From the NCBI RefSeq assembly GCF_965641715.1, contig NZ_OZ282453.1: a stretch of 64,000 nucleotides of DNA; one strand, written 5' to 3'. Every line of letters starts with the position of its first letter. Position 1 is the first letter of the stretch. Made by a program: the position numbers. The DNA comes from Escherichia coli. Lineage in GTDB: Bacteria > Pseudomonadota > Gammaproteobacteria > Enterobacterales > Enterobacteriaceae. Positions 17,501 to 23,500 of the stretch are shown piece by piece.

Positions 17501-20500
17501 AGGGATAACGCTGATCATCCGTGCGGTCATCGCCTGATGCGACGCTGACGCGTCTTATCATGCCTACAAAATATGCCCGAATCGTAGGCCAGATAAGGCG
17601 CTTGCGCCGCATCCGGCATATAGCCGAGTAGAGGCAAAATTACTCTTCCCGGCCTTTACCCATACTTTTTTGGTCTTCATCCGGATAGTGTTTTTTTAGA
17701 TATTCCAGGACGTTTTTATTGACCTTATGTTGGGTATACACCCACCCTTTCCAGTAATCAGGCTGGTCCAGGTAAACTTCTGGCGGAATGGTGAAATCAG
17801 AAAGCGTTAACCATTCGGCTAACAGATCGGGGTTTCGTTTCTGTATCAACTGCAACAGCATAATCAGCGACATGGCAGAGGCAGGAGCCGTACTATCGCC
17901 GCTTAAATACTTCCACACTGTCGACCGGTTCGAACGAAAAAGGATCGGTAGCAATGCCCGGTCCAGATTCATTTCATTAAAAATCTTCTCAAATTCATTC
18001 ATTTAAATTTTCCTGCCTAGCGTAAACCTCTTAAAAATTGAGATTTATCAAAGAAACGCATTTTAGCACACATCAGGAACCGCTTCACGTTTAGTCCAGA
18101 AACAGAATTTATTTCGCTTATCAAAACAAGTCTTTACTCTTTTTTACGCTAAAATAGCACAAAATGATTTTCAAAATTATTTACTTAAGAAACCAATTCG
18201 GTTTCTTATAGACAGTGTTTACGCTTACACAAGACAAAAACGCGCTTTACATCACACAAATGGCGGCGTAGATTTCGATTAAATTGCAACGCAAATTAAC
18301 TCCAATAGAAATATTATTGGTTTCTATTAGAAACCAAAATAAACTTAATTTGATCGAGAAAAAATAAATGAAATCTGTAAAGTTGTCTTTACTGGCAGTC
18401 GTTGTTGCTACCATTGTGAGCCCATCTGCTTTTGCAGATGATACGGTTGAAGCGGCAGCGACAGAACTGACAGCGATTCACCCAGGTATGTCTCATGATG
18501 AAATCGATCAAAAAATCAATCGCTTCATGATTCGGACAGGTAATACAGAAGCCGCGCAAGATTACCTGTTTTCTCATGGATATATGGACCCACAGACAGG
18601 CGATAATATTTACCCTGCCAGTACAGCCGTACAGACTGACAGCAACGTCACCGACCAAAACCAGGCTGATCGCGACGCGGCGCAAGATACCGCAATTCAG
18701 AACGCACACAATATCGCAAGCATTGCGGCGGCAAATGCAGATGACGCCAAAAAAGCGCTTACCACTGCGCAATCTGCAATTGATGCGAACAAGGGAGCTA
18801 TTGCTGATACTCAGAAAGATGTCGCAGATGTTAAAGCAAGCGCCGCTCATGCCAACACAAACGCCAATACCGCCCTGATGAATGGCCTGAAACTCTCCGG
18901 TGCCGTGAGCGACAACAAAAACCAGATTGAAAAAAACAGCTCCTCTATTGCTGAACAGCAGGAACAGATGGCGTTAAGTGAGCAGAACCAAATACATCGC
19001 GATGCCGCACAGGACTCGTCAATTCAGGATGCCCAGCACTCTGCTAACTGGGCTTCGCTTAAAGCCGATGACGCGCACCATGCCATTATGGTGGCGCAAA
19101 CGGATATCGACGCCAATAAGTCGGCCATTTCCGACACACAAAAAGATGTTGCCGCTGTCCGCACCGATGTGAGTGCAATGAAAGATGATGTCGCAGATGT
19201 TAAAGCAAGTGCCGATCATGCCAACGCGAATGCTAATACCGCGCTGATGAATGGCCAGAAACTTTCCGGTGTCGTCAGCGACAACAAAAACCAGATTGAA
19301 AAAAACAGTACGGCGATTACCGAACAGCAGGAACAAATCACTGCCACGCAAAAAACCGTTGCCGCCACGGGTGATGTAAAGACCGCTGCTCGTTATCAGA
19401 GCATGATTAACGCTCTTCAGACAGCCACTGCTGATGCGCAACAATCACAGTCTGAAGCCCAACAAACGCAGATTACAGAGCAACAGAAGCAGATCGCAGC
19501 CACAGAAAAAACGGTCGCTGCAATTGGCGATCCCCAGTCAACTGCGCATTATCAAAAGATGATTAATGCCAAACTGACGGCGCAAAATGAAGCCAATGAA
19601 CGTTCAACCGCTGATCAGGAGCAGAGAATTAATGAACTGGCTTCCAATGTCGCGACGCAAGAGCAAATCGATAGCGTGCAATACGGTGAACAAATTCGAA
19701 ACCTTGCGCAAGACTCGGCCCAGGCACATGAGCGAATCGAAAGTCTGACACAAGATTCTGCCCAAACGCACCAGCAGTTAACAAACACGCAAAAACGTGT
19801 TGCAGATAACAGCCAGCAAATCAATTCGCTCAATAACAACTTCAGTTCGTTGAAACACGAAGTGGAAGATAACCGTAAAGAGGCTAATGCGGGTATTGCG
19901 TCAGCCGTCGCTATTGCTTCACAGCCTCAAGTTAAGACAGGTGATTTTATGATGGTGTCTGCCGGGGCGGGTACATTCAACAATGAATCTGCGGTATCTG
20001 TCGGTGCTTCGTTTAATGCTGGAATTCATACGGTAATTAAAGCGGGAGTCTCTGCGGATACACAATCTGATTTCGGCGCGGGTGTCGGCGTGGGGTATTC
20101 GTTCTAATTTTAATAGCAATTTCTTATTATACTCTAAATAATTCGAGTTGCAGCAACTTGAAGTATGACGGGTATAGCAATATTCCGCAGTTTATTTAAG
20201 GTTAACAATGATGAATAGCTCCATTAAATCGTTTTCCCTGCTGGCGGTTATATTACTGGCTGGCTGTAGCTCACCCGCTTCCCGCATCGCAGATTGCCAG
20301 GCGCAGGGCGTCAGCCATGACACCTGTTATCTCGCAGAACAGCAGCGCCAGACGGCTATTTTAAGTACTTCCGAAGCGCAGGCATTTAAAAATGCAGAAG
20401 CCGCACAACATGCCCAGGCGGCAAAGAAAGCCATTTATAAAGGATTTGGCATGACCTTTAGAATGAGCAGTAAAAACTTTGCTTATCTCAATGATTCATT

Positions 20501-23500
20501 ATGTGCAATTGATGAAGACAATAAAGATGCCACTGTTTATCAGTCAGGTCTGTATAACGTCATTGTTTATCATCACACAGGAAAAGTCGCCTTAATGAAA
20601 GAAGGCCAGTTTGTGGGTTATTTAAAATGAAGGAACAAAGGAAAATACCCCTGACGCATATTATGATTATCGGTGCGTTTATTTTTGCCTTCTTGCAAGT
20701 AGTATTATTAGCCTCCCTGGTTCACGCTGTGAATGTTAACAATGAAATCCAGGAAGGCTTATTTCAGTCGGGGCGCATTATGGTAGAAAGTTTGCAGCAT
20801 ATTCTTTCGGTGCAAACGGGAATTAACTGATTTTCACCCCGCCCGATGATGACAGCAGCCGGAGAGATTTTCGATAATCGGGCAGTCGGCGCTGTCATCA
20901 CCGGGGCAGGCATTCGCCAGCGCCAGTAGCTGGTTGCGCATAGATTGCAGTTCTTCGATATGCCGTTCGATCTCCGCCACCTTCTCCAGCGTACGACGTT
21001 TGACGTCGGCACTGTGACGCTGCGGGTCGTTAAACAGATTCACCAGCTCGCCGCTCTCTTCCAGGTTAAAGCCCACCTGGCGCGCCTGGCGCAATAAGGT
21101 CAATTCGTTGAGATGCTGCTGCGTGTAGGTTCGATAACCATTTTCGCTGCGCATCGGCGGCGTCACCAGCCCCTTCTCTTCATAGAAGCGAATGGCTTTG
21201 CTGGTCAGGCCGGTAATTTTTGCTACATCGCTAATGTTCATCGTTCGCGCAACGCCTCCTGTGCTTTGTTAAAGGGTTTCAACAGATAATCCAGCACGCT
21301 TTTTTTGCCGGTGCGGATATCGACCGTCGCCACCATACCGGGGAATATCGGAAACTGCTGTTTGCTTTTGTTTTCCAGATGGTTGCTGAAAGTGCGAATG
21401 TACACCCGATAGTAATAAACATCGCGCCGCACTTCATCCTGAACGGTATCCGGTGAAATCACCGCCACTTCCCCCGGCAGACCACCGTAGATGGAGTAAT
21501 CGTAGGCGGTTATTTTCACCAGCGATTTTTGCCCCGGATGGATAAACGCCACATCGCGCGGGGAGATTTTTGCCTCAATCAGCAGTTGCTCATCCAGCGG
21601 CACGATGGTCATCAGTTTACCACCGGGGGCAATGACGCCGCCAACTGTGGTGACGTCAATATCCTGAACAATGCCACGAACTGGCGCAGTAAAGTTGAGC
21701 CTGGTGAGGGAGTCTTCACGCCCACGGATCACCGAACGCTGGGTTTCCACTTCCGCATTGGCTTTCGCTAACTCTTCCCGCGCCTGAACGTAGTATTGCG
21801 TGCGCACGTCGCTGAGTTTGTTTTCCAGTTCATTGGCCTGGCGTTGCAGGCGCAGTACTTCGACGCTGCTCGCTGCCCCCTGTTTTACCAGCGGCTGGGT
21901 CATCGCCAGTTCGCGATTGACCAGACTGATCCCCTGCGTCAGCCCGGTGGTGGCTTTGTTCAACCCGTCGCGGCGAGTGTTGTACAACGCCGTTTCCGAC
22001 TCGATAAGTTCGGGGAATTTATTCAGTTCGTCAGGGAAGACCAGCGGTTTATTGCTCACTTCCGCCCGCAGCCGCGCCGAGGTTGCCAGCGCCGCGTACA
22101 GCCGCGACATCGCTTCCTGGACGTCGGATTCCGTTTTGGTGCGGTTAAGCTGCGCCAGCGGCTGGCCCTGTTCGACAATATCGCCAACTTTCACGTCGAG
22201 ATGATACAGAATTCCGCCTTCCAGCGACTGCACCACCTGTTCGCGCCCGGAGGGTTCTACCGTGCCGCTGCCGGTGGTGACTTCATCAAGCTGGAAGTAC
22301 CACGCCCAGCCGAGAAAGCAGAGCAGCATCACAGAGGTAACACGTACCGCCAGCGCCGAACGCGGCAGGCGGGGTTCAGTCAGGCCACGGTTATATTGCA
22401 GTTGTCCGTTCATGCGGCAGACCCCTTATTCTTCTCCTGCAACACCACCCGTCGCGCCGTGGGTTCGCCCTGTTCACGCAAAATGGCCTCTTTCGCGCCG
22501 TCCATCACAATCCGCCCCTGATCCATCACGATAATGCGGTCCACCAGTTGCAGCATCGCCGTGCGGTGGGTAGCGACGATCAGCGTGCGATGCCCAATCC
22601 ACTGTTTCAGTTGTTCGATTAAATGCGCTTCTGCCATTTCGTCCAGCGAGGCGCTGGGTTCGTCGAGCAGCACGATATTGGGTTGAGAGATAAGTAGCCG
22701 CGCCAGCAGCAGCGTTTGCCGCTGGCCACCAGAGAGGCCAAATCCTCCTTCCTGAATCATGTAGTTGAGACCGTTTTTCTGCTTCTGCACAAAGGGCAGC
22801 GCTCCGCTGAGGGTTAACGCGCGTTCGATATCTTCATCGCTGGCTTCCGGCATCCCCATGGTGAGGTTTTCCCGCAGCGAACCAAAGAACAGTCGCCCGG
22901 TCTGGCTGAGTAGCCCCATGTCTCGCCGCAGATCTGCCGGATCAAGCTGCCCGATACTGATGTTATCCAGCAACACCTGCCCCTGCTGGGCGATACGCAT
23001 TCCGGCGAGCATTTGCAGTAGCGTCGATTTACCCGCGCCGTTGCGCCCGAGAATGGCGATTTTCTCTCCGGCCTGAATGTGGAGTTTGCCGATCGCCACA
23101 TCGGCAATCTTCTCTTCTTCGTCGTAATAAAAGATAGCGTTGCTGAACTGATAATTACCGTGCAGCACCGCTTTATGCACCAGTTTGCCGTGTTCCGGCT
23201 GATCCACGGGGCGCTTCATCAGTTCATCAAGGCCGTTACGTGCTACTTTCGCCTGCTGCCAGCGCGAGAGCACGCCGGATATCTGCGACAGCGGCGCGAT
23301 GGTGCGCGAAGCCAGGATCGTCGTCCCGACCAGTGCGCCGGTGGTCATGTCGCCGTTCATCACCATAAAGCAGCCCACCAACAGCACCACGACGTAGACG
23401 ATGGATTGCACTTCCTGGGTCCAGGTGAGCAGTAGCCCGGTGAGAAAACGTTGCTTCATGCTGATGGACGAGGCCACGTCGTTGGTGTGATTCCACTGAT

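What the first reader, a model, noticed from the sequence alone, without database searches (positions are those of the whole stretch)
17540..20830. Second accessory islet between ybbJ and cueR: YadA-like trimeric autotransporter with a lipoprotein, a small membrane protein and a divergent 120-aa ORF
As I recall, ybbJ and cueR are adjacent in K-12. Here ~3.3 kb intervenes. It encodes a 579-aa protein with a signal peptide, a repeat-containing coiled-coil stalk and a YadA-type C-terminal anchor (...GAGVGVGYSF), then a lipoprotein and a 67-aa membrane protein that are translationally coupled. The lipoprotein could be a dedicated helper, by analogy with SadB for SadA in Salmonella. The small N-terminal region has no recognisable head domain, so the binding specificity is unknown. 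cueR is thus flanked on both sides by surface-adhesin loci.
Basis: partly seen in the sequence, partly recalled or inferred. Interest (0 to 1): 0.65.

Follow-up and report, generated by a model that had tools for sequence, protein, structure and literature searches.

The report
Known E. coli O-island 29 adhesin islet
The 3.3-kb insert between ybbJ and cueR is the already described O-island 29 of pathogenic E. coli, whose main gene has the sequence hallmarks of a surface-anchored trimeric fibre, even though the literature calls that same gene a transcription factor (GmrA).

Summary
Window 17538-20833 is a 3,296-bp insert between ybbJ and cueR, which abut in K-12. It holds four ORFs: a divergent 120-aa ORF, a 579-aa protein with a signal peptide and a full YadA_anchor match (E 4e-10), a 140-aa lipoprotein, and an overlapping 67-aa single-pass membrane protein.

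It is not new. It is O-island 29 / S-loop 43 of E. coli O157:H7 (z0640, z0639, z0638), present in 1,416 of 5,426 complete E. coli genomes. The published deletion primers match the window at both borders.

The autotransporter exists as deeply diverged alleles of 338 to 594 aa. Synonymous divergence is 0.8-2.0, against 0.03-0.2 in neighbouring genes. The window allele is rare: it is the O145:H28 type with one extra 123-aa cassette.

Primer mapping shows that the published "transcriptional activator GmrA" is this autotransporter. I found no real DNA-binding domain in it. The likelier DNA-binding protein of the islet is the 120-aa ORF, a weak XRE/MqsA-type match.

The lipoprotein is not related to SadB. 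It is linked to YadA-anchor genes in four independent contexts but is more often free-standing, so a helper role stays untested.

Verdict: already known, modest interest.

The parts
17538..17625 (.). REP/BIME-type repeats at the left border of the islet, just after the ybbJ stop codon
   Evidence: The sequence was read directly. This stretch is multi-copy in E. coli genomes (median 6 places per genome). It gives sub-threshold naRNA4 (REP-derived) Rfam hits.
17640..18002 (-). 120-aa ORF, orthologue of z0640 of O-island 29; candidate XRE/MqsA-type helix-turn-helix protein transcribed divergently from the autotransporter gene
   Evidence: ORF. It is 99% identical in nucleotides to the O157 copy. 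The z0640 deletion primers flank the O157 copy exactly. Pfam MqsA_antitoxin scores E 0.12 on this protein, but distant family members hit MqsA, Xre-like-HTH, HTH_3 and HTH_26 at 3e-5 to 4.5e-4. hhalign of the family profile against the MqsA HTH gives E 4.7e-4, probability 32%. The AF2 model is unreliable (pLDDT 55).
18003..18367 (.). Divergent AT-rich control region with two palindromes that share the half-site AGAAAC: 18187-18207 (AAGAAACC-AATTC-GGTTTCTT) and 18317-18337 (TTGGTTTCT-ATT-AGAAACCAA)
   Evidence: G+C is 0.31. Sequence. The palindrome cores are conserved in five E. coli alleles, and the allele breakpoint lies at about column 145 of the alignment. One promoter-like site lies at 18246-18274. 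A function as operators is inferred, not shown.
18368..20107 (+). 579-aa trimeric-autotransporter-type protein, orthologue of z0639 / ECs0548 / 'GmrA'. Layout: signal peptide residues 1-23 (AFA|DD); conserved N-terminal domain residues 24-72; two cassettes of about 123 aa within residues 101-346; conserved C-terminal stalk residues 329-505; YadA anchor residues 520-579 (nt 19925-20104)
   Evidence: Pfam YadA_anchor E 4.1e-10. Solved-structure sequence hits to the AtaA and Hia anchors. Heptad periodicity reaches z = 8.8 at residues 442-483; the anchor has a period of about 2; the protein has no Cys. Allele alignments. The gmrA primers map on the O157 orthologue.
18668..19405 (+). Two tandem, diverged copies of a cassette of about 123 aa in the stalk; gain or loss of a copy accounts for most of the length differences between alleles
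   Evidence: Direct repeat D1, 369-nt spacing, 88% identity. The O145:H28 allele is 98% identical but lacks exactly 123 aa (residues 151-273) and 20 aa (residues 333-352). Alleles carry 0, 1 or 2 copies.
20208..20630 (+). 140-aa lipoprotein, orthologue of z0638. Layout: lipobox LLAG|C with Ser at +2; Cys-containing helical part; long helix residues 37-70; confident C-terminal 8-strand beta domain residues 75-140
20627..20830 (+). 67-aa single-pass membrane protein, translationally coupled to the lipoprotein gene (ATGA overlap)
   Evidence: ORF. One hydrophobic segment at about residues 12-34, preceded by Lys and Arg residues. Homologues with the same 4-nt overlap follow the lipoprotein gene in L007 and L010. 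No family match.

Best explanation
The insert is the window strain's copy of O-island 29 (S-loop 43) of E. coli, a four-gene chromosomal accessory module.

Its main product is a 'headless' trimeric autotransporter (type Vc secretion). The proposed pathway follows what is established for the family. The Sec system exports the protein using the N-terminal signal peptide. Three C-terminal four-strand segments assemble, through BAM, into a 12-strand outer-membrane barrel. The roughly 480-residue passenger is threaded out as a trimeric coiled-coil fibre, with a small conserved domain (residues 24-72) at the tip. Gain and loss of a 123-aa cassette changes fibre length, and the gene is kept in the species as several very old allele classes, as exposed surface antigens are.

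The divergent 120-aa protein is most likely the module's own XRE/MqsA-type DNA-binding regulator, acting on the AT-rich intergenic region.

The lipoprotein (predicted outer-membrane, small beta-barrel domain) and the coupled 67-aa inner-membrane protein probably form a periplasm-facing pair that acts with the fibre. Their role is not established.

Shown here: the identity of the locus, the domain architecture, the allele structure and the synteny. Inferred: trimerisation, surface exposure, adhesive or aggregative function, the regulator role and the helper role.
For: Locus identity:
- The OI-29 deletion primer arms of Yang et al. match the window exactly at 17490-17528 and 20834-20871. The gmrA, z0638 and z0640 arms flank the YadA-family, lipoprotein and 120-aa CDSs of an O157 genome.
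- The three small genes are 95-99% identical to those of other E. coli.
- The gene was listed as 'Saa-like protein' ECs0548 in 2007.

Autotransporter architecture:
- YadA_anchor over the full model, E 4e-10 here and 2.6e-11 in the O157 allele.
- Sequence hits to the AtaA and Hia anchors.
- AFA|DD signal peptide, no Cys, heptad periodicity and beta periodicity in the anchor.
- Match to a PHROG 'adhesin' family, E 5e-20.

Surface-antigen-like evolution:
- dS of 0.8-2.0 between alleles, against 0.03-0.2 for ybbJ, cueR and the three small genes.
- Allele classes found in 1,028, 349 and 32 genomes.
- In-frame cassette insertions and deletions.

Module conservation:
- The same four genes occur in Pseudocitrobacter, next to a recombinase, and in a metagenomic enterobacterium at a different intergenic site. 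An autotransporter plus lipoprotein pair occurs in Enterobacter.

HTH:
-.
Against: - No experiment shows surface exposure or trimerisation of this protein.
- Deleting OI-29 in EDL933 did not change adherence to HeLa or Caco-2 cells. The only published phenotype is reduced motility, attributed to direct binding of the fliA promoter (PMC5826968).
- No recognised head or ligand-binding domain is present, and the passenger matches no solved structure.
- My coiled-coil evidence is a crude periodicity measure. It is weak for residues 316-441.
- The HTH assignment of the 120-aa protein rests on distant relatives and a 32% hhalign probability.
- Most lipoprotein homologues examined outside E. coli are not next to an autotransporter gene.
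Confidence: 0.82

Rival explanations
1. [not shown]
For: Yang et al. 2018 (PMC5826968) report several results. Motility, flagellation and fliA/fliC/motA transcripts are reduced in the OI-29 and gmrA deletion mutants, and complementation restores them. Similar effects were seen in eight strains of several pathotypes. EMSA with purified His-tagged protein and ChIP-qPCR with a FLAG-tagged protein both gave signal at the fliA promoter. A 2024 review repeats the assignment.
Against: - The protein has a cleavable Sec signal peptide and a full YadA outer-membrane anchor.
- The only DNA-related matches are far-sub-threshold coiled-coil hits: SMC at 22 bits against a cut-off of 567, Rad50, DndD, and TMF_DNA_bd at E 0.16. 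These are the probable origin of the 'putative DNA-binding domain'.
- The published constructs were non-native. The pET28a cloning primer starts at the native ATG, so the N-terminal His tag precedes the signal peptide. The 3xFLAG tag is fused directly after the terminal ...GYSF, which would mask the C-terminal signal for barrel assembly (the consequence is my inference).
- Alleles differ by 22-30% in nucleotides and by up to 256 aa in length. That is unusual for a factor said to be 'highly conserved' and to bind one core promoter.
- The gene is syntenic with envelope proteins in several genera.
Confidence: 0.06
2. The protein is a surface fibre, but its main role is not adhesion to epithelial cells. 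It may act in autoaggregation, biofilm formation, serum or immunoglobulin interactions, or as a phage or host-range determinant. The published motility defect would then be an indirect consequence of removing an abundant outer-membrane protein, through envelope-stress or surface-sensing pathways that feed into flagellar class II expression.
For: - The OI-29 deletion did not change HeLa or Caco-2 adherence but lowered motility, and flhDC was reported unaffected.
- There is no head domain.
- The passenger is almost pure stalk, like the stalk-dominated autotransporters that bind serum factors (general knowledge of Eib and UspA2, not tested here).
- Old allele classes point to selection by something that recognises the surface, such as the immune system or phages.
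- Related YadA-anchor proteins are encoded by phages.
Against: No data bear on aggregation, serum resistance or envelope stress for this protein. The indirect route to fliA is speculation.
Confidence: 0.3
3. The lipoprotein and the 67-aa protein are not biogenesis helpers of the autotransporter. They are an independent envelope function, for example a MliC/PliC-like inhibitor or binding protein, that merely travels in the same islet.
For: - Six of the eleven independent contexts examined have the lipoprotein gene alone (L009, L013, L015-L018). In one plasmid it follows a non-autotransporter secreted protein (L012).
- There is no similarity to SadB or TpgA.
- Deleting z0638 had no reported phenotype in motility.
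Against: - Four independent contexts, at different chromosomal sites and with divergent autotransporters, place it immediately downstream of a YadA-anchor gene.
- The established helper SadB also has a free-standing paralogue, YajI, so free-standing homologues do not exclude a helper role.
Confidence: 0.45

Closest known systems
O-island 29 of E. coli O157:H7 EDL933 (z0638-z0639/gmrA-z0640), also called S-loop 43 of Sakai (ECs0548 'Saa-like protein')
   Same: Same insertion point between ybbJ and cueR, with the deletion-primer arms identical. Same four genes in the same order and orientation. The small genes are 97-99% identical in nucleotides.
   Different: The autotransporter allele differs: 579 aa here against 338 aa in O157, only 70-78% nucleotide identity where alignable, and two stalk cassettes that O157 lacks. 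The island is 3,296 bp here against the published 2,643 bp. The nearest allele is that of O145:H28 (98% amino-acid identity, minus 123 and 20 residues).
YadA-type trimeric autotransporter adhesins (type Vc: YadA, Hia, AtaA, Saa, Eib)
   Same: Signal peptide, fibrous repetitive stalk, and a C-terminal four-strand anchor ending in an aromatic residue. The anchor aligns to the solved AtaA and Hia anchors.
   Different: No recognisable head domain. The passenger has no detectable similarity to Saa-type plasmid genes, to phage YadA-like genes or to any solved structure beyond the anchor and adjacent stalk. Adhesive function is undemonstrated.
SadA-SadB (Salmonella and E. coli) and AtaA-TpgA (Acinetobacter): autotransporters with a dedicated accessory protein
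   Same: A small lipoprotein gene lies in the same transcriptional direction, next to an autotransporter gene. The family also has free-standing paralogues, as SadB has YajI.
   Different: The lipoprotein lies downstream, not upstream. No sequence or fold similarity to the MATH-like SadB/YajI domain, and no BamE-like or OmpA-like domain of the TpgA type was detected by Pfam or the fold searches. Ser at +2 predicts outer-membrane rather than inner-membrane localisation. There is an additional coupled 67-aa membrane protein. No functional data exist.
XRE / MqsA-type helix-turn-helix proteins (for the 120-aa ORF)
   Same: The pattern L..L.G..RST...Y..G....P.SA..L..LL aligns to the C-terminal HTH of MqsA. 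Distant family members score on MqsA_antitoxin, Xre-like-HTH, HTH_3 and HTH_26.
   Different: No zinc-binding N-terminal domain and no toxin partner. The window protein itself is below threshold (E 0.12). The family is very small: 23 representatives among 1.84 billion proteins.
MliC/PliC/ACP-type small periplasmic 8-strand beta-barrels (for the lipoprotein C-terminal domain)
   Different: Only 9-12% identity. Foldseek finds nothing significant. Whether lysozyme-inhibitor motifs are present was not examined. The extra N-terminal Cys-containing helical region is absent from those proteins.

Membership tests
Trimeric autotransporter (type Vc secretion) | N-terminal Sec signal peptide | tested here: met
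   MKSVKLSLLAVVVATIVSPSAFA|DD has a basic n-region, a hydrophobic core and an AxA cleavage motif. It is conserved in all alleles. This is by inspection; no predictor was available.
Trimeric autotransporter (type Vc secretion) | C-terminal YadA-type anchor (four beta strands, terminal aromatic residue) | tested here: met
   Pfam PF03895 over model positions 1-60 of 60, E 4.1e-10 and 2.6e-11 in the O157 allele. Sequence hits to AtaA 9vnj at 2.4e-6 and to Hia 2gr7 and 3emo. Hydrophobicity period of about 2 in the anchor. The protein ends in ...GVGYSF.
Trimeric autotransporter (type Vc secretion) | Coiled-coil stalk leading into the anchor | tested here: met
   The 3.5-residue periodicity gives z = 8.8 and 5.1 at residues 442-504 and z = 2-3 in the cassettes. 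Composition is Ala/Gln/Ser/Asp/Thr/Asn-rich with no Cys. The measure is crude, and residues 316-441 show no clear heptad signal.
Trimeric autotransporter (type Vc secretion) | Head (ligand-binding) domain such as the YadA head | tested here: not met
   No Pfam head family is found, and the passenger has no match among solved structures. Only a conserved N-terminal domain of about 50 aa and unknown fold is present. A head is common in the family but not required for anchor-based membership.
Trimeric autotransporter (type Vc secretion) | Trimerisation, outer-membrane insertion and surface display | not testable with these tools
   This needs fractionation, heat-modifiability gels and surface labelling.
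Adhesin (functional class) | Mediates attachment or aggregation | not testable with these tools
   The only published test is negative: the OI-29 deletion in EDL933 adhered to HeLa and Caco-2 cells like the wild type (PMC5826968).
O-island 29 / S-loop 43 of E. coli | Location between ybbJ and cueR, with gene content z0640 (-), z0639, z0638 (+) | tested here: met
   Primer mapping, annotated O157 region and 95-99% identity of the small genes.
SadB-type autotransporter export lipoprotein | Homology or fold similarity to SadB/YajI (trimeric, MATH-like C-terminal domain) | tested here: not met
   [not shown]
SadB-type autotransporter export lipoprotein | Lipoprotein gene in an operon with the autotransporter gene | tested here: met
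   Same strand, 100-nt gap and no strong terminator. The adjacency is conserved in four independent contexts, but the gene is free-standing in six others.
SadB-type autotransporter export lipoprotein | Inner-membrane retention | tested here: not met
   The mature N-terminus is Cys-Ser-Ser. Under the Asp+2 rule for Lol avoidance (established knowledge) this predicts outer-membrane sorting. This is an inference only.
SadB-type autotransporter export lipoprotein | Improves surface display or integrity of the partner autotransporter | not testable with these tools
   This requires co-expression experiments.
XRE/MqsA-type HTH DNA-binding protein (120-aa ORF) | Recognisable helix-turn-helix domain | tested here: inconclusive
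   The window protein scores E 0.12 on MqsA_antitoxin. Family members found by profile search hit MqsA, Xre-like-HTH, HTH_3 and HTH_26 at 3e-5 to 4.5e-4. hhalign against MqsA gives E 4.7e-4, probability 32%. The AF2 model is unreliable.
Bacterial transcription factor (the published 'GmrA' assignment of the autotransporter) | A DNA-binding domain and cytoplasmic location | tested here: not met
   Only coiled-coil noise is found: SMC, Rad50 and DndD at 12-22 bits against cut-offs of 245-1087, and TMF_DNA_bd at E 0.16. The signal peptide and outer-membrane anchor predict export.

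The most novel reading that the evidence does not exclude
The lipoprotein and the translationally coupled 67-aa membrane protein form a third, so far unrecognised kind of accessory system for trimeric autotransporters, after SadB and TpgA, specific to 'headless' enterobacterial fibres. A 2026 global survey of helper proteins considered only autotransporters with a YadA head domain, so it could not have seen this family. 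Separately, the surface fibre rather than a transcription factor would underlie the reported OI-29 effect on flagellar expression. That would reveal adhesin-to-motility signalling through the envelope.
Probability: 0.2. Interest if true: 0.55.

Novelty: already known. Interest (0 to 1): 0.3.

Why it matters
The locus itself adds nothing new. It is a described O-island carried by about a quarter of E. coli strains, including O157:H7, O145:H28, O55:H7 and many extraintestinal lineages.

What matters is a correction to the record. The gene published and reviewed as the transcriptional activator GmrA encodes a protein with a signal peptide and a complete YadA outer-membrane anchor, and no genuine DNA-binding domain. 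The proposed mechanism of motility control therefore needs re-examination with natively exported protein.

The islet does encode a plausible HTH protein, the z0640 orthologue.

The allele structure makes the gene a potential typing or antigenic marker: at least three deeply diverged classes with cassette-driven length changes.

RefSeq start-codon calls that remove the signal peptide from the long alleles should be corrected.

Tried and rejected
- SadB analogy by homology: rejected. There are no sequence or fold hits.
- AF2 model of the 120-aa protein: pLDDT 55, too poor for a fold search.
- Foldseek of the lipoprotein model against the PDB: nothing below E 0.1.
- Passenger domain against PDB sequences: no hit even at E 5.
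- Search with the N-terminal 178 residues: only E. coli and E. marmotae fragments, so it said little about distribution.
- Tandem Repeats Finder: missed the stalk cassettes, which are too diverged. They were found by pairwise repeat search and by allele alignment instead.
- NCBIfam weak hits of the lipoprotein (TraV, XAC1346_fam; 17-18 bits against cut-offs of 45-120): treated as signal-peptide/lipobox noise.
- 'Saa-like' label: plasmid and phage YadA-type genes match only the anchor and adjacent stalk, so no specific relation to Saa is claimed.
- Rfam: only sub-threshold REP-related hits.
- Literature searches for a paper linking GmrA to trimeric autotransporters: none found in the open-access library. 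This does not prove that nobody has noted the conflict.
- The idea that the window comes from a cryptic Escherichia clade, raised by the 92% flank identities: rejected. qmcA-ybbJ is 99% identical to O157-lineage E. coli.

Full report

Yes. The ORF list gives:
- ybbJ 17079-17537 (+)
- a 120-aa ORF 17640-18002 (-)
- a 579-aa ORF 18368-20107 (+)
- a 140-aa ORF 20208-20630 (+) with the lipobox LLAG|C
- a 67-aa ORF 20627-20830 (+) whose ATG overlaps the lipoprotein stop codon (ATGA)
- cueR 20834-21241 (-)

In a K-12 genome the stop codons of ybbJ and cueR are directly adjacent. Alignment of the K-12 junction to the window ends at 17528 on the left and starts at 20834 on the right. The insert is therefore 17538-20833, 3,296 bp. 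Its G+C falls to 0.31 in the divergent intergenic region and is 0.40-0.51 in the genes, against 0.55-0.59 in the flanks. Two REP-type repeats sit at the left border.

**2. What the large protein is**

- Pfam matches the last 60 residues to the complete YadA_anchor model (E 4.1e-10).
- phmmer against the sequences of solved structures finds the anchors of AtaA (2.4e-6) and Hia.
- The N-terminus is a standard Sec signal peptide with an AFA|DD cleavage site (by inspection).
- The protein has no Cys, 1% Pro, and is rich in Ala, Gln, Ser, Asp, Thr and Asn.
- A Fourier measure of hydrophobicity gives a strong 3.5-residue period just before the anchor (z 8.8 and 5.1 for residues 442-504). The signal is moderate in the repeat cassettes. 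The anchor has a period of about 2.
- No head domain is detected, and the passenger matches no solved structure.
- Residues 24-72 are nevertheless conserved in all E. coli alleles and in a Pseudocitrobacter homologue.

This is the architecture of a trimeric autotransporter, with the anchor-proximal stalk but without a classical head.

**3. The locus is already known**

In complete E. coli genomes the same arrangement is annotated as 'YadA family autotransporter adhesin', lipoprotein and hypothetical proteins between ybbJ and cueR, for example in an O157 strain.

- The OI-29 deletion arms match the window exactly at 17490-17528 and 20834-20871.
- In the O157 genome, the z0640 arms flank the 120-aa CDS.
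- The z0638 arms flank the lipoprotein CDS.
- The gmrA (z0639) arms flank the 338-aa YadA-family CDS.
- The gmrA cloning primers begin at its ATG (MKTVNVAL...) and end at ...GYSF-stop.

The Sakai orthologue ECs0548 (S-loop 43) was listed as a 'Saa-like protein' among adhesion genes in 2007 (PMC2323221).

**4. Distribution and alleles**

A probe made of the lipoprotein and 67-aa genes finds 1,416 of 5,426 complete E. coli genomes. The hit is always chromosomal and essentially single-copy.

The full autotransporter ORFs are 338, 436, 471, 579 and 594 aa in the strains examined. RefSeq often annotates shortened starts for the long alleles, which removes the signal peptide.

Counting genomes with at least 80% coverage:
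- the O157-type short allele is in 1,028 genomes
- the 471/594-aa type is in 349
- the window type is in 32, of which only 4 carry the full 1,740-nt gene

The other 28, mostly O145:H28, carry a 98%-identical protein lacking exactly 123 residues (151-273, one cassette) and 20 residues (333-352). Alleles thus differ by 0, 1 or 2 copies of a cassette of about 123 aa.

Between allele classes the gene is only 70-78% identical in nucleotides, while the three small genes and the flanks are 95-99% identical. Synonymous divergence is 0.8-2.0 in the autotransporter, against 0.03-0.2 in ybbJ, cueR and the small genes. dN/dS is about 0.1 throughout. The breakpoint lies inside the divergent intergenic region.

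This is the pattern of an old polymorphism at an exposed surface antigen. It is not the 'highly conserved' regulator the paper describes. The small genes carry the same dS as the flanks, which suggests long residence of the islet in the species rather than recent import. Gains and losses were not resolved here.

**5. The GmrA conflict**

The paper reports the following:
- Deleting OI-29 or gmrA lowers motility and fliA/fliC/motA expression, and complementation restores them.
- Adherence to HeLa and Caco-2 cells is unchanged.
- His-tagged protein shifts a fliA promoter fragment.
- FLAG-tagged protein gives ChIP-qPCR enrichment.

The basis for calling it a regulator was a 'putative DNA-binding domain' from a conserved-domain search.

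I scanned the O157 protein. The only significant domain is YadA_anchor (2.6e-11). The DNA-related matches are typical coiled-coil noise (the same holds for the window allele):
- SMC at 22 bits against a cut-off of 567
- Rad50
- DndD
- TMF_DNA_bd at E 0.16

The constructs were also non-native. The cloning primer for the pET28a construct starts at the native ATG, so the N-terminal His tag precedes the signal peptide. The 3xFLAG tag was fused directly after the terminal Phe. I infer that this protein would stay in the cytoplasm or fail to assemble in the outer membrane.

The motility phenotype may well be real. A direct transcription-factor mechanism is hard to reconcile with the sequence. I found no open-access paper that links GmrA with trimeric autotransporters.

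**6. The other three genes**

*The 120-aa protein.* It belongs to a very small family: 21 close homologues and 23 representatives among 1.84 billion proteins. On its own it scores only E 0.12 on the HTH part of MqsA. Distant members of the family hit MqsA_antitoxin, Xre-like-HTH, HTH_3 and HTH_26 at 3e-5 to 4.5e-4. The family profile aligns to the MqsA HTH with E 4.7e-4, probability 32%. The AF2 model was too poor to use. I read it as a probable XRE-type regulator.

The intergenic region it shares with the autotransporter gene carries two palindromes with the half-site AGAAAC. Their cores are conserved in five alleles. These are candidate operators, untested.

*The 67-aa protein.* It has one transmembrane segment and no family match.

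**7. Synteny elsewhere**

With an autotransporter:
- Pseudocitrobacter faecalis carries a 125-aa homologue (-), a 633-aa YadA-anchor protein with the same N-terminal domain, a second autotransporter, the lipoprotein and an overlapping 64-aa gene, next to a serine recombinase.
- A metagenomic enterobacterium carries the four genes between fetA and qmcA, a different gap of the same neighbourhood.
- Enterobacter asburiae has an autotransporter and the lipoprotein at an unrelated site.

Without an autotransporter:
- Six other homologues are free-standing.
- One plasmid copy follows a non-autotransporter secreted protein.

The association is thus repeated but not obligatory. SadB likewise has a free-standing paralogue, YajI. 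A 2026 survey that looked for new autotransporter helpers considered only proteins with a YadA head domain, so it would not have sampled this family.

**8. Verdict**

The islet is the known O-island 29, so novelty is 'already known'.

The window strain carries a rare long allele related to that of O145:H28.

Points of residual interest:
- the mismatch between the sequence and the published GmrA mechanism
- the probable HTH regulator next door
- the untested lipoprotein and small-membrane-protein pair
- the antigen-like allele structure

Function as an adhesin remains an inference from architecture. The one published adherence test was negative.

Noticed in passing
window 21238-45365 (- strand): On the other side of cueR lie a HlyD-family adaptor (21238-22413), a type I secretion ABC protein (22410-24572) and an intact 6,929-aa ORF (24576-45365). 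The last is annotated siiEA / BapA-related adhesin in a near-identical genome, where it is a pseudogene. K-12 and several other strains keep only a 98-nt remnant of the HlyD gene next to cueR, so the K-12 state there is a deletion.
   Followed up: partly
L001 7147-8886; L003 2470-3885; L005 2552-4336 (RefSeq E. coli genomes): RefSeq/PGAP annotates the long autotransporter alleles with internal start codons (for example 7747-8886 in L001), which removes the signal peptide and N-terminal domain. The full ORFs of 579, 471 and 594 aa all begin with a conserved signal peptide.
   Followed up: yes
window 18187-18207 and 18317-18337: Two palindromes share the half-site AGAAAC (AAGAAACC-AATTC-GGTTTCTT and TTGGTTTCT-ATT-AGAAACCAA) in the divergent intergenic region. 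Their cores are conserved in five E. coli alleles, and a similar inverted repeat is present in the metagenomic homologue L010 (4758-4796). They are candidate operator sites.
   Followed up: partly
window 18003-18367 (alignment A6): The first 145 nt or so, next to the 120-aa gene, are almost invariant among alleles, while the autotransporter-proximal part diverges. The recombination breakpoint that delimits the hypervariable autotransporter allele therefore lies inside the intergenic region.
   Followed up: partly
window 17498-17654: REP/BIME-type repeats lie directly after ybbJ. They are multi-copy in E. coli genomes and give sub-threshold matches to the REP-derived naRNA4 family.
   Followed up: partly
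L004 4320-4999, L006 1789-2467, L014 3626-4311: Other E. coli strains carry further or different cargo at the cueR side of the same gap. A 679-nt frameshifted ORF is present with the islet in GPEC1210 and without it in U12A. O145:H28 has a 1,224-nt gene after the 67-aa gene. This gap is a recurrent site of variation.
   Followed up: no
L007 3706-5532 (Pseudocitrobacter faecalis): A second ORF of about 600 aa with a signal peptide and a YadA-like C-terminus (...AGSLSVGW) sits between the first autotransporter and the lipoprotein gene. It has no precomputed Pfam hit. The module lies next to a large serine recombinase, which suggests mobility.
   Followed up: no
PMC5826968, supplementary Table S2 (primers): The published GmrA constructs were non-native. 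The pET28a cloning primer starts at the native ATG, so the N-terminal His tag precedes the signal peptide. The 3xFLAG tag is fused directly after the terminal ...GYSF. Both would be expected to prevent normal export and assembly of an autotransporter, which bears on how the EMSA and ChIP results are read.
   Followed up: partly
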